From a virus (lineage: Duplodnaviria > Heunggongvirae > Uroviricota > Caudoviricetes), in IMG/VR virus record IMGVR_UViG_2869924733_000004: a stretch of 37,286 nt of DNA, one strand, 5' to 3'. Below are positions 1 to 3,000 of this stretch, piece by piece; within the stretch, counting starts at the first letter, position 1, and each line of letters begins with the position of its first letter. Position numbers: made by a program.

Positions 1-3000
1 ATGAACAATGAACTCCCCGATGATATTGAGCTGCTTAAAGCCATGTTGCGTAAGCAACAGAGTCGGCTTCGACAGTATGCCTGTCAGGTCGCGGGCTATG
101 AGCAGGAAATTGAACGGCTGAAAGCGCAACTCGACAGGTTGCGTCGTATGTTGTTCGGCCAGAGTTCAGAGAAAAAGCGTCATAAGCTTGAAAATCAGAT
201 CCGACAGGCAGAAAAACGACTGTCGGAACTGGAAAACCGGCTGAACACAGCCAGAAATCTTCTGGAAGATGCATCGTCAGTCACAGATTCACCTGACACC
301 AGTCCCCCGTCAGAAAACCCGATCGCCAGTAAGCCTGAATCCCCGGGACGAAAATCTTCACGAAAACCGCTGCCGGCAGAACTTCCCCGGGAGACACATC
401 GCCTTCTGCCTGCTGAAACCAGTTGCCCGGCCTGTGGAGGTGTTCTGAAAGAAATGGGGGAAACAATCTCAGAGCAACTGGATATCATTAATACCGCCTT
501 TAAAGTTATCGAAACCATACGTCCCAAACTGGCCTGTAGCCGGTGTGATGTCATCGTTCAGGCACCACTTCCCCCTAAACCGATCGAACGCGGTTATGCC
601 AGTGCAGGGTTACTTGCACGGATCCTGGTCAGCAAATATATGGAACATATCCCTTTATATCGCCAGTCAGAAATATACGCGCGACAGGGCGTGGAGCTGA
701 GCCGTAATACCATGGTGCGCTGGGTATCAGAAATGGCAGACAAACTCCGTCCTCTGTATATAGCGCTGAATGACTATGTTCTGGAGGCAGGAAAGGTGCA
801 CGCAGATGACACTCCGGTGAAAGTACTGGCCCCGGGGAACGGAAAGACGAAAACGGGTCGTCTGTGGGTATACGTCAGGGATGATCGTAATGCGGGTTCA
901 TCCCTGCCGGCAGCCGTCTGGTTCGCGTATTCGGCAGATCGCAAAGGAGAACATCCGCAGCTCCACCTGGCAAAGTATCAGGGCGTACTGCAGGCTGATG
1001 CCTATGCAGGTTATAACGTACTGTACGAAACGGGCCGGGTGAAGGAAGCCGGGTGCCTGGCCCACGCCCGCCGAAAAATCCATGACGAGGATGTGCGCCG
1101 TCCGACAGAAATGACTCAGGAAGCGCTCAGACGGATAGCAGAGTTATACGACATAGAAGCGGAGATACGTGGCAGTCCGGCAGAGGAACGGCTTGCAGTC
1201 AGAAAAGCCAGAAGCGTCCAGTTGATGCAGTCGTTGTACGACTGGATACAGTTGCAGAGGAAAACGCTGTCGAAACATGCGGAGATGGCGAAGGCGTTCG
1301 ACTATATCCTGAATCACTGGAATACGCTGAACGAGTTCTGTCGTGACGGCTGGGTGGAAATAGACAACAACATCGGTGAAAACGCGTTACGATCGGTGGC
1401 GGTTGGAAGAAAAAATTATCTCTTTTTCGGCTCAGACAAGGGAGGAGAAAGTGCGGCGATCATCTACAGTCTGCTGGTCACCTGCAAACAGAACGAAGTG
1501 GAGCCGGAGGACTGGTTGCGCGAAGTGATCGAGAAGCTCAATGACTGGCCGTCGAACCAAGTGCATGAACTGCTGCCCTGGAACTTCTCGTCTGTAAAAT
1601 AATCCTTACGCTACGTACTTCTCGGGGCGCTTACCTTTATGCCAACAGAAAGAAGGAATTAACGTAAGCGCCCCATCAGCGACGTCTTGTGAAAATTGTC
1701 CTGTCTGGCAACAATCGCGCCCATCTATATTGATGGACACGAACGATGAATTCCCAGACAACAAAAGATATTCCCTGCTTCCGTTCTTATTTGCCTGATG
1801 CCCTGCGTTTAAGATTTGAAGATAAACTGACCATCCGGGCCATCGCTCAGCGTCTGGGTCTCAGTCATTCCACAATACATACGCTTTTTCAGCGATTTCT
1901 TGCATCCGGTATCGCATGGCCATTGCCCGATTCAGTTTCATTCGCTCAACTTGACGCCATCCTTTATGCCAACAGAAAGAAGGAATTAACAGAGCCTCAA
2001 ATCAGAGAAGGCTCATGGCGAAAAGAACGGCGAACCAGCTATAGCCGTGAATTTAAGGTCCGTCTGGCTAAGCAGGCGTTACAGCCTGGGGCTGTTGTTG
2101 CCCGGATCGCCAGAGAACACGATATCAATGATAACCTGCTGTTTAAATGGAAAAGCCAGTACGAGGACGGCTTACTGAGCGATGATGACATACAGGAATG
2201 CATGCCTGTCCCGGTGGCACTGACTGATACGCCGGAGCCGACCAGACCAGTTACAAATCCCTTCTGGCGTAACAAGCATGATGAGCGCCCTGAGGGGGCT
2301 CCCGGAAACGTCCCACGGTGCGAGCTGCATCTTAAATCAGGTGTGGTAAAACTGTTTGACCCTCTCACTCCGGAACTGTTACGGGCGCTAATCCGCGAAA
2401 TGAAAGGGGGTATCCGATGATAACGCTGCCGACCGGTACCAGAATCTGGATCATCGCTGGCATCACAGATATGCGTTGTGGCTTCAATGGCCTGGCTTCG
2501 AAGGTGCAGAACACGCTGAAAGATGACCCGTTCTCCGGGCATATCTTCGTCTTCCGGGGCCGCAGTGGCAAAATGGTGAAAATACTGTGGGCCGATCGTG
2601 ACGGGTTATGCCTGTTCGCCAAACGCCTGGAACGGGGCCGCTTCGTCTGGCCGGTGACCCGGGAAGGGAAAGTGCACCTGACGCCAGCTCAGTTATCCAT
2701 GCTACTGGAGGGGATCGCGTGGCAACATCCCAAACGGACAGAACGGCCTGGCATCCGGATATAACCCGTGATAAAACAAGGGAATGAACAATGAACTCCC
2801 CGATGATATTGAGTTGCTTAAAGCCATGTTGCGTAAGCAACAGAGTCGGCTTTGACAGTATGCCTGTCAGGTCGCGGGCTATGAGCAGGAAATTGAACGG
2901 CTGAAAGCGCAACTCGACAGGTTGCGTCGTATGTTGTTCGGCCAGAGTTCAGAGAAAAAGCGTCATAAGCTTGAAAATCAGATCCGACAGGCAGAAAAAC

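What the first reader, a model, noticed from the sequence alone, without database searches (positions are those of the whole stretch)
1635..1993. 30-bp direct repeat at the junction of tandem IS66-family copies
The 30 bp CCTTTATGCCAACAGAAAGAAGGAATTAAC separate the copy-1 IRR from the copy-2 IRL and recur exactly 329 bp downstream inside the tnpA-like ORF. This is far longer than the 8-bp target duplication expected for IS66. It cannot be explained as simple head-to-tail insertion and suggests illegitimate recombination, a partial duplication, or a dimer-junction artefact. The tnpA-like ORF is also about twice the usual size because of an N-terminal HTH extension.
Basis: seen in the sequence. 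Interest (0 to 1): 0.4.

Follow-up and report, generated by a model that had tools for sequence, protein, structure and literature searches.

The report
Old IS fragment between tandem copies
The 30-bp repeat is a leftover piece of an older copy of the same insertion sequence (ISSfl3, IS66 family) into which newer copies landed. This is an ordinary by-product of IS pile-ups in Shigella dysenteriae, with one small oddity: the left copy is bracketed by a 29-bp duplication instead of the usual 8-bp one.

Summary
The repeat is real: CCTTTATGCCAACAGAAAGAAGGAATTAAC occurs exactly at 1634-1663 and 1961-1990, 327 bp apart. Its first C is the last base of the copy-1 IRR, so the spacer is 29 bp.

The element is ISSfl3 (2754 bp). 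Five other insertions show its normal 8-bp target duplication.

The window matches S. dysenteriae chromosome CP027027.1. Upstream of the window, that record shows A - IS[1..327] - copy 1 - IS[299..327] - copy 2 - B. The spacer is therefore the tail of a 327-bp relic of a third, older copy, repeated on both sides of copy 1.

Related strains carry simpler states of the same locus:
- a single IS
- an inverted nested IS with an 8-bp duplication
- relic plus copy 2, without copy 1

Copy 1 is not a duplicate of copy 2 (6 differences). It equals a copy 1.75 Mb away, except for one base shared only with the relic.

The best reading is ordinary nested transposition plus homologous exchange among clustered copies. 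A single insertion with a 29-bp (8+21) duplication is not excluded. The 30-mer is not a subterminal feature, and misassembly is unlikely. Interest is low.

The parts
1..1634 (+). 3' part of ISSfl3 copy 1 ('Z'). It holds an intact tnpC (1-1602, 533 aa) and the right inverted repeat, whose terminal 11 bp GGGGCGCTTAC lie at 1624-1634. The rest of this copy lies upstream of the window.
   Evidence: ORF list. Pfam LZ_Tnp_IS66, zf-IS66, DDE_Tnp_IS66 and DDE_Tnp_IS66_C. The full copy is L018 1970-4723 in CP027027.1.
1635..1663 (+). 29-bp spacer, identical to ISSfl3 positions 299-327. It is a second copy of the last 29 bp of the 327-bp relic of an older ISSfl3 copy that lies just upstream of copy 1.
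   Evidence: exact repeat. (L018 1643-1969 = IS[1..327], followed directly by the IRL of copy 1).
1664..3428 (+). Left part of ISSfl3 copy 2 ('X'). It holds the IRL (GTAAGCGCCCC, 1664-1674), tnpA (1746-2420), tnpB (2417-2764), and the start of tnpC at 2784 with a TGA nonsense codon at 2853-2855.
   Evidence: Allele table.
1961..1990 (+). The native internal copy of the 30-mer in copy-2 tnpA (IS positions 298-327). It encodes ILYANRKKELT in the linker between the two HTH domains.
   Evidence: The same internal position is seen in other ISSfl3 copies.
3429..5915 (-). IS600-like IS3-family element inserted in copy-2 tnpC, with a 3-bp duplication GAA. It carries a nested 1221-bp IS30-family element at about 4368-5588.
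   Evidence: 93% identity to the annotated IS600 of pCP301. (inverted repeats, repeats). Gene/Pfam table.
5916..6907 (+). Right part of ISSfl3 copy 2, ending in IRR ...GGGGCGCTTAC at 6907. It is followed by a truncated phage tail-fibre ORF (6912-7502). There is no 8-bp duplication with the left flank.

Best explanation
**What the spacer is (shown).** It is neither a target duplication of a head-to-tail insertion nor a feature of the IS ends. It is a 29-bp piece (IS positions 299-327) of a third, older ISSfl3 copy, called Y here.

**Original state (shown).** Y sat alone between a serine-recombinase gene (A) and a truncated phage tail-fibre gene (B).

**First steps (inferred).**
- A second copy inserted in direct orientation into Y's tnpA after position 327.
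- Homologous recombination between that copy and Y's 3' part then left A - Y[1..327] - X - B.

**Arrival of copy 1 (inferred).** A further copy, Z, has the haplotype of the copy at the thiH/rpoC locus of the same chromosome. It then transposed into the relic at the 8-bp target CTTTATGC (positions 299-306), 21 bp upstream of X's left end. Homologous exchange with the neighbouring 327-bp repeats reshaped its left side. The result is A - Y[1..327] - Z - Y[299..327] - X - B.

**One explicit path that gives every junction and allele (inferred).**
1. Unequal exchange triplicates the 327-bp unit.
2. Z inserts canonically in the second unit.
3. The resulting 306-bp tandem repeat pops out.

On this path the 29 bp are the 8-bp target plus the 21 bp that separated it from X.

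The anatomy, the locus states and the haplotypes are shown. The order of events and the recombination steps are inferred.

**Confidence.** That the spacer is a relic of a third copy: about 0.9. That the route was canonical insertion plus recombination: about 0.6.
For: - The window is 100% identical to CP027027.1 from position 2638208.
- In that record, BLAST with the reconstructed 2754-bp IS gives IS[1..327] at L018 1643-1969, a complete IS at 1970-4723, IS[298..327] at 4723-4752, then copy 2.
- The same locus in other strains shows simpler states:
  - CP026836.1 has a single IS with identical A and B flanks.
  - PSSP01000001.1 has an inverted ISSfl3 nested in that IS, with the 8-bp duplication CTTAAATT.
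  - An IMG/VR contig has IS[83..327] directly followed by copy 2 and B, without copy 1.
- Five independent ISSfl3 insertions have 8-bp duplications, which confirms the termini.
- Z differs from X at 6 sites. It matches the L030 copy of the same chromosome at every site except T227. That base is otherwise seen only in the adjacent relic, in both L018 and L017. Z is therefore an immigrant copy whose 5' end has exchanged with the relic.
- Another ISSfl3-in-ISSfl3 nesting with a canonical 8-bp duplication lies elsewhere in the same chromosome (L032). Self-nesting is therefore common here.
Against: - The predicted intermediate junction of a canonical insertion (GACGCCATCCTTTATGC|GTAAGCGCCCC) was not found in viral or metagenome collections.
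- No strain with a triplicated 327-bp unit was seen.
- The path needs three events after the relic+X state. A single insertion with a 29-bp duplication plus one gene conversion needs two.
- Only one assembly carries the arrangement, and no reads are available.
Confidence: 0.6

Rival explanations
1. Single non-canonical insertion. An incoming ISSfl3 copy joined its left end exactly at the relic/X boundary and its right end 29 bp upstream. This made a 29-bp target duplication (8 bp plus 21 bp, about two helical turns). The T227 base was later copied from the relic by gene conversion.
For: - Comparing the filled site (L018) with the empty site (L017) gives exactly Z plus 29 bp. Formally that is a 29-bp target duplication.
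- Z has an immigrant haplotype.
- This route needs the fewest events.
Against: - All five other insertions with both flanks intact have exactly 8 bp.
- It requires an independent joint at the very phosphodiester already used by X's left end.
- The mosaic 5' end of Z shows that homologous exchange did act at this left junction.
Confidence: 0.2
2. Transposase-made tandem dimer of copy 2. The right end of X attacked a sister chromatid 29 bp (or at an 8-bp target 21 bp) upstream of X's own left end. This is like IS30, IS21 or IS911 dimer formation, and it duplicated X together with 29 bp of its left flank.
For: - The spacer is derived from the left flank, as in known IS dimers.
- An inter-sister replicative event at target CTTTATGC predicts exactly the observed junctions (my reasoning, not a tool result).
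Against: - Z is not a copy of X. It has 6 differences, and five of those alleles match a distant copy (L030).
- The spacer is far longer than the 2-3 bp of known active junctions.
- No junction promoter was found.
- No other tandem junction of this IS was found in 5426 E. coli genomes, PLSDB plasmids or GTDB representatives.
Confidence: 0.07
3. Assembly artefact: an extra IS copy and 29 bp created by long-read assembly of a repeat-dense region.
For: Only one assembly shows it. The region is packed with identical IS copies.
Against: - The two copies differ at 6 positions and carry different inactivating mutations.
- The junctions fall exactly at IS termini.
- The flanking relic and copy 2 are independently confirmed in another strain.
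Confidence: 0.05
4. The 30-mer is a normal subterminal part of the IS, meaning the true left end lies 29-30 bp further out.
For: None beyond the adjacency itself. Megablast did extend a few bases into the flanks of some other copies.
Against: - At least 17 other left flanks all differ immediately outside GTAAGCG.
- The 8-bp duplications abut GTAAGCG...CGCTTAC.
- The apparent extensions are only partial flank similarity, for example GGGATTAAT and GGAATCAAC.
Confidence: 0.01

Closest known systems
ISSfl3 (IS66 family; annotated 'ISSfl4' in pCP301 AF386526)
   Same: - 99-100% nucleotide identity.
- tnpA-tnpB-tnpC organisation.
- GTAAGCGCCCC terminal inverted repeats.
- 8-bp duplications at other sites.
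   Different: Nothing in the element itself differs. Only the local arrangement is unusual: a relic plus two copies, with 29-bp flanking repeats.
Nested IS-in-IS insertions followed by homologous recombination, as is common in IS-rich Shigella genomes (general knowledge)
   Same: - The outer copy is interrupted in tnpA.
- Canonical nested examples lie at the same locus in another strain (L019) and elsewhere in this chromosome (L032), each with 8-bp duplications.
   Different: The outer copy's 3' part is gone. One inner copy is flanked by 29 bp rather than 8 bp of outer-copy sequence.
Tandem IS dimers with an active IRR-IRL junction: (IS30)2, (IS21)2, IS911/IS2 dimers (my knowledge of the literature)
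   Same: Head-to-tail copies, separated by a spacer that derives from the left flank.
   Different: - The spacer is 29 bp, not 2-3 bp.
- The copies are not identical.
- No hybrid promoter was found.
- The transposition mechanism of the IS66 family is not established, to my knowledge.
IS679 / IS66 (Han et al. 2001 J Bacteriol 183:4296; Gourbeyre et al. 2010 Res Microbiol 161:136; both cited from the reference list seen, neither read)
   Same: Three-ORF IS66-family architecture and an 8-bp target duplication (from memory for these elements; tested here for ISSfl3).
   Different: ISSfl3 TnpA has an additional N-terminal HTH.

Membership tests
IS66 family (ISSfl3) | Three genes tnpA, tnpB, tnpC with IS66-type domains | tested here: met
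   Pfam hits: HTH_Tnp_1 (9e-24), TnpB_IS66 (4e-39), and DDE_Tnp_IS66 (4.5e-101) with zf-IS66, LZ_Tnp_IS66 and DDE_Tnp_IS66_C. RefSeq names a 99.5% identical copy an 'IS66-like element ISSfl3 family transposase'.
IS66 family (ISSfl3) | Terminal inverted repeats beginning GTAAGCG | tested here: met
   The 11 terminal bp GTAAGCGCCCC are identical at both ends, with partial matches further in. The ends are defined by at least 17 different flanks.
IS66 family (ISSfl3) | 8-bp target-site duplication | tested here: met
   Five insertions show it: CTTAAATT, ATTCAAAT, GGACGGAG, GTTATTAA, TTTAATAC. It is not met by copy 1 at this locus (29-bp flanking repeat) or by copy 2 (no duplication).
Nested IS insertion | An outer copy split into two parts that flank the inner copy, with a duplicated target | tested here: inconclusive
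   The 5' part of the outer copy is present (L018 1643-1969). Its 3' part is absent at this locus. The full pattern is seen in L019 and L032.
Active tandem IS dimer (IS30/IS21/IS911 type) | Two copies of the same element abutted, with a spacer of a few bp | tested here: not met
   The spacer is 29 bp. The copies differ at 6 sites and have different origins.
Active tandem IS dimer (IS30/IS21/IS911 type) | A junction promoter assembled from the two ends | tested here: not met
   No sigma-70-like site was found in 1500-2100. This is a consensus scan only.
Active tandem IS dimer (IS30/IS21/IS911 type) | Circle or dimer intermediates detectable in cells | not testable with these tools
   This needs PCR or long reads from cultures.

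The most novel reading that the evidence does not exclude
The ISSfl3 (IS66-family) transposase can join its two ends 29 bp apart on a target that abuts a resident left end (8 bp plus two helical turns). Equivalently, it can form tandem copies carrying a flank-derived spacer. Either would be a first sequence-level hint about the uncharacterised transposition chemistry of the IS66 family.
Probability: 0.2. Interest if true: 0.45.

Novelty: already known. Interest (0 to 1): 0.18.

Why it matters
Mostly this is a worked example. A puzzling long 'repeat at an IS junction' dissolves once the flanking sequence outside the window and sister strains are examined. It records successive self-insertions and recombination among copies of one IS in an IS-saturated pathogen genome.

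The residual point of interest is the 29-bp flanking duplication around copy 1. If transposase made it in a single step, it would bear on how IS66-family elements choose and cut targets, which to my knowledge has not been worked out. As it stands, ordinary transposition plus homologous recombination explains it.

Tried and rejected
- **Junction search in plasmids and E. coli.** I searched for the whole junction in PLSDB plasmids and 5426 complete E. coli genomes, in near and distant modes. Only normal single-copy geometry was found: IRL and the internal 30-mer 327 bp apart.
- **GTDB representative genomes.** A scan for GGGGCGCTTAC-N0-30-GTAAGCGCCCC gave 12 hits. All are short hairpins in unrelated phyla with no IS66 proteins nearby.
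- **Viral and metagenome scans.** I searched for the IRR|CTTTATGCC joint, for the predicted canonical left joint (…CCTTTATGC|GTAAGCG), and for the predicted right joint of a nested insertion at 327 (CGCTTAC|GAATTAACAGAGCC). All gave nothing.
- **Strict target consensus.** Three left flanks look alike (GGAATTAAC, GGGATTAAT, GGAATCAAC). However, 18 flanks together show only AT-rich 8-mers, so I dropped the 'hot-spot' claim.
- **Recombination-only routes.** I worked through several by hand. None can create the IRR|299 joint, so at least one transposition joint is required there.
- **Inter-sister replicative dimerisation of copy 2.** It fits the junctions but not the haplotypes.
- **Literature.** Searches for the IS66 mechanism, dimers or ISSfl3 returned nothing relevant. 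Han et al. 2001 is not held.

Full report
**1. Observation**

The 30-mer CCTTTATGCCAACAGAAAGAAGGAATTAAC occurs exactly twice in the window, at 1634-1663 and 1961-1990. None of 100 shuffles gave a match. Start-to-start spacing is 327 bp.

Base 1634 is the last base of the right inverted repeat of the left IS copy (GGGGCGCTTAC, 1624-1634). The left inverted repeat of the right copy (GTAAGCGCCCC) begins at 1664. The spacer proper is therefore 29 bp (1635-1663).

The second occurrence lies in tnpA of the right copy, at codons 72-82. This is the linker between an N-terminal HTH_23 domain and the HTH_Tnp_1 domain.

**2. The element**

- The three ORFs carry the IS66-family Pfam domains.
- Near-identical copies are annotated 'ISSfl4' in pCP301 and 'IS66-like element ISSfl3 family transposase' in RefSeq.
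- Joining 1664-3428 to 5919-6907 removes an IS600-like insertion and gives a 2754-bp element.
- Across loci fetched from Shigella and E. coli genomes, 18 different left flanks and 20 right flanks all diverge immediately outside GTAAGCG…CGCTTAC.
- Five insertions have perfect 8-bp duplications: CTTAAATT, ATTCAAAT, GGACGGAG, GTTATTAA and TTTAATAC.

The termini and the 8-bp rule are thus confirmed for this element. The 30-mer is an ordinary internal sequence (IS positions 298-327), not a subterminal feature.

**3. Where the window comes from, and what lies upstream**

An exact-protein look-up with the truncated tail-fibre ORF (6912-7502) found the source, CP027027.1 (GCA_002943855.1). The window is 100% identical to it from position 2638208. 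The neighbouring accession, CP027028.1, is a plasmid of Shigella dysenteriae strain E670/74. The strain assignment for the chromosome is an inference from that adjacency.

The window happens to start at the ATG of tnpC of the left copy. Upstream in the record (locus L018), BLAST with the 2754-bp IS gives this order:

| L018 coordinates | Content |
|---|---|
| 1643-1969 | IS[1..327] |
| 1970-4723 | A complete IS (copy 1, 'Z') |
| 4723-4752 | IS[298..327], the finding's 30-mer |
| after 4752 | Copy 2 ('X') |

The locus therefore reads A - IS[1..327] - Z - IS[299..327] - X - B. A is a large serine-recombinase gene and B is the truncated tail-fibre ORF. Z is bracketed by the same 29 bp on both sides. 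Those 29 bp are the end of a 327-bp relic of a third ISSfl3 copy ('Y').

**4. The same locus in other strains**

| Record | State of the locus |
|---|---|
| CP026836.1 (L036) | A - single ISSfl3 - B, with identical outer flanks |
| PSSP01000001.1 (L019) | The same IS, with an inverted ISSfl3 nested in its tnpA and an 8-bp duplication CTTAAATT |
| IMG/VR contig (L017) | IS[83..327] directly followed by X and B. No Z, no second 29-mer, no IS600 |

Y was therefore the original resident. The relic+X state exists independently, and the window's state differs from it by exactly 'Z + 29 bp'.

The relic+X state is what one expects from two steps (inference):
- a direct-orientation insertion after Y position 327;
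- recombination between the inner copy and Y's 3' part.

This also explains why X has no target duplication (left flank GAATTAAC, right flank GGAAATGG).

**5. Haplotypes**

Variable sites, in IS coordinates:

| Site | X | Z | Other copies |
|---|---|---|---|
| 227 | C | T | The relic has T, in both L018 and L017. All other copies examined have C. T creates a TAG stop in tnpA. |
| 467 | G | A | L030 has A |
| 779 | G | A | L030 has A |
| 1151 | T | C | L030 has C |
| 1190 | T | C | T is the TGA nonsense codon at window 2853 |
| 2444 | G | A | L030 has A. A corresponds to TnpC Thr442. |

- Z's exact TnpC occurs at only three loci of this chromosome.
- Z is identical to the copy at the thiH/rpoC locus (L030, about 883 kb) except for T227.
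- Z is therefore not a duplicate of X. This rules out simple tandem duplication, assembly collapse or expansion of one copy, and replicative dimerisation of X.
- Z is an immigrant copy whose 5' end has exchanged with the adjacent relic.

**6. Mechanism**

The joint IRR|CTTTATGCC cannot be produced by homologous recombination among the pieces present. It must be a transposition joint, or an illegitimate joint that happens to fall exactly at an IS terminus.

A plain 8-bp insertion into the relic at CTTTATGC (299-306) would leave relic[1..306] to the left of Z. The record has relic[1..327].

Three routes reproduce the observed structure:

- **(i) Canonical insertion plus recombination.**
  - Unequal exchange between the relic and X[1..327] makes a second 327-bp unit.
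  - Z inserts canonically at CTTTATGC in that unit.
  - The resulting 306-bp tandem repeat pops out.
  - This gives all junctions and puts T227 into Z without further assumptions.
- **(ii) Insertion, unequal sister exchange, then conversion.**
  - Z inserts canonically into the relic.
  - An unequal exchange follows with X on the still-uninserted sister chromatid.
  - Gene conversion then changes site 227.
- **(iii) One non-canonical insertion.**
  - Z inserts once, with a 29-bp duplication (8+21 bp).
  - Gene conversion then follows.

I favour the recombination-assisted canonical routes (about 0.6 together) for three reasons:
- every other insertion shows 8 bp;
- Z's left junction is an exact copy of X's left junction;
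- Z's mosaic 5' end shows that exchange with the relic did happen.

Route (iii) stays at about 0.2. All of these steps are inferred and none is observed.

**7. Other checks**

- No promoter-like site is formed at the junction.
- The junction is absent from PLSDB plasmids, 5426 E. coli genomes, GTDB representatives, and the IMG/VR and JGI metagenome contigs.
- Only this one assembly carries it.

**8. Verdict**

The explanation is mundane: a relic of a third copy in a self-nested IS cluster of a known element, in an IS-saturated Shigella genome. The only unresolved curiosity is the 29-bp flanking repeat around copy 1.

Novelty: already known kind. Interest: low (0.18).

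Noticed in passing
window 1-1634 with L018 2052-2198 (upstream of the window), versus window 1746-3428: The two tandem copies carry complementary defects. Copy 1 has a TAG stop in tnpA (IS position 227, outside the window) but intact tnpB and tnpC. Copy 2 has intact tnpA and tnpB, but a TGA at 2853-2855 and an IS600-like insertion in tnpC. Together they still encode one full protein set.
   Followed up: partly
window 3429-5915 (nested element about 4368-5588); loci L042, L044, L045: An IS600-like element (93% identical to pCP301 IS600) sits in copy-2 tnpC with a 3-bp duplication GAA. 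It carries a 1221-bp IS30-family element. The same tnpC break, giving an identical 296-aa C-terminal fragment, occurs in at least 24 contigs at several loci and genomes. One whole composite (L044) is flanked by an 8-bp duplication TTTAATAC. This suggests either an IS600 hot spot or movement of the composite as a unit.
   Followed up: partly
window 1644-1663; L001 4001-4019; L002 3496-3514: Three independent left flanks of this IS type are similar: AGAAGGAATTAAC, AGTACGGGATTAAT and AGAACGGAATCAAC. Two of them lie in the HTH-coding segment (…AREYGIN, …ARENGIN) of other transposase genes. A wider sample shows only an AT-rich preference.
   Followed up: partly
L017 and L019 (IS positions 1460-1503); window 3123-3166 is intact: A 44-bp deletion in tnpC, bounded by a 9-bp repeat, is present in the B-adjacent copy of two sister strains. 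It is absent from the window's copy 2 and from the single-IS strain L036. This implies independent resolution or gene conversion among copies.
   Followed up: no
L018 313-1671 and window 6908-7502: The original IS (Y) sits between a large serine-recombinase ORF, whose last 29 nt run into the IS left end, and a truncated tail-fibre ORF. There is no 8-bp duplication (AGAAAAGG versus GGAAATGG). The A|B junction is therefore itself an older IS-mediated rearrangement of a prophage.
   Followed up: no
L032 (CP027027.1 3797607-3805608): A second ISSfl3-in-ISSfl3 nesting lies in the same chromosome. The inner copy has the copy-1 TnpC allele and sits in an inverted outer copy. Both have canonical 8-bp duplications (GGACGGAG and GTTATTAA).
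   Followed up: yes
window 4356-5600, 19762-21006, 31344-32588, 35791-37035, with 12394-13540 / 16290-17436 and others: The window is extremely IS-dense. It holds four copies of the IS30-family element, three 1292-bp identical IS600-like/IS30 composite segments, and 1147-bp inverted IS3-type copies. All of this surrounds an ipaH-like gene (8606-10369, LRR_TTSS+NEL) and a phage integrase/excisionase pair (10932-12005 and onward).
   Followed up: no
window position 1; L017 end: The window starts exactly at the tnpC ATG, and the IMG/VR contig ends exactly at a tnpA ATG. These look like provirus boundaries drawn at gene calls.
   Followed up: no
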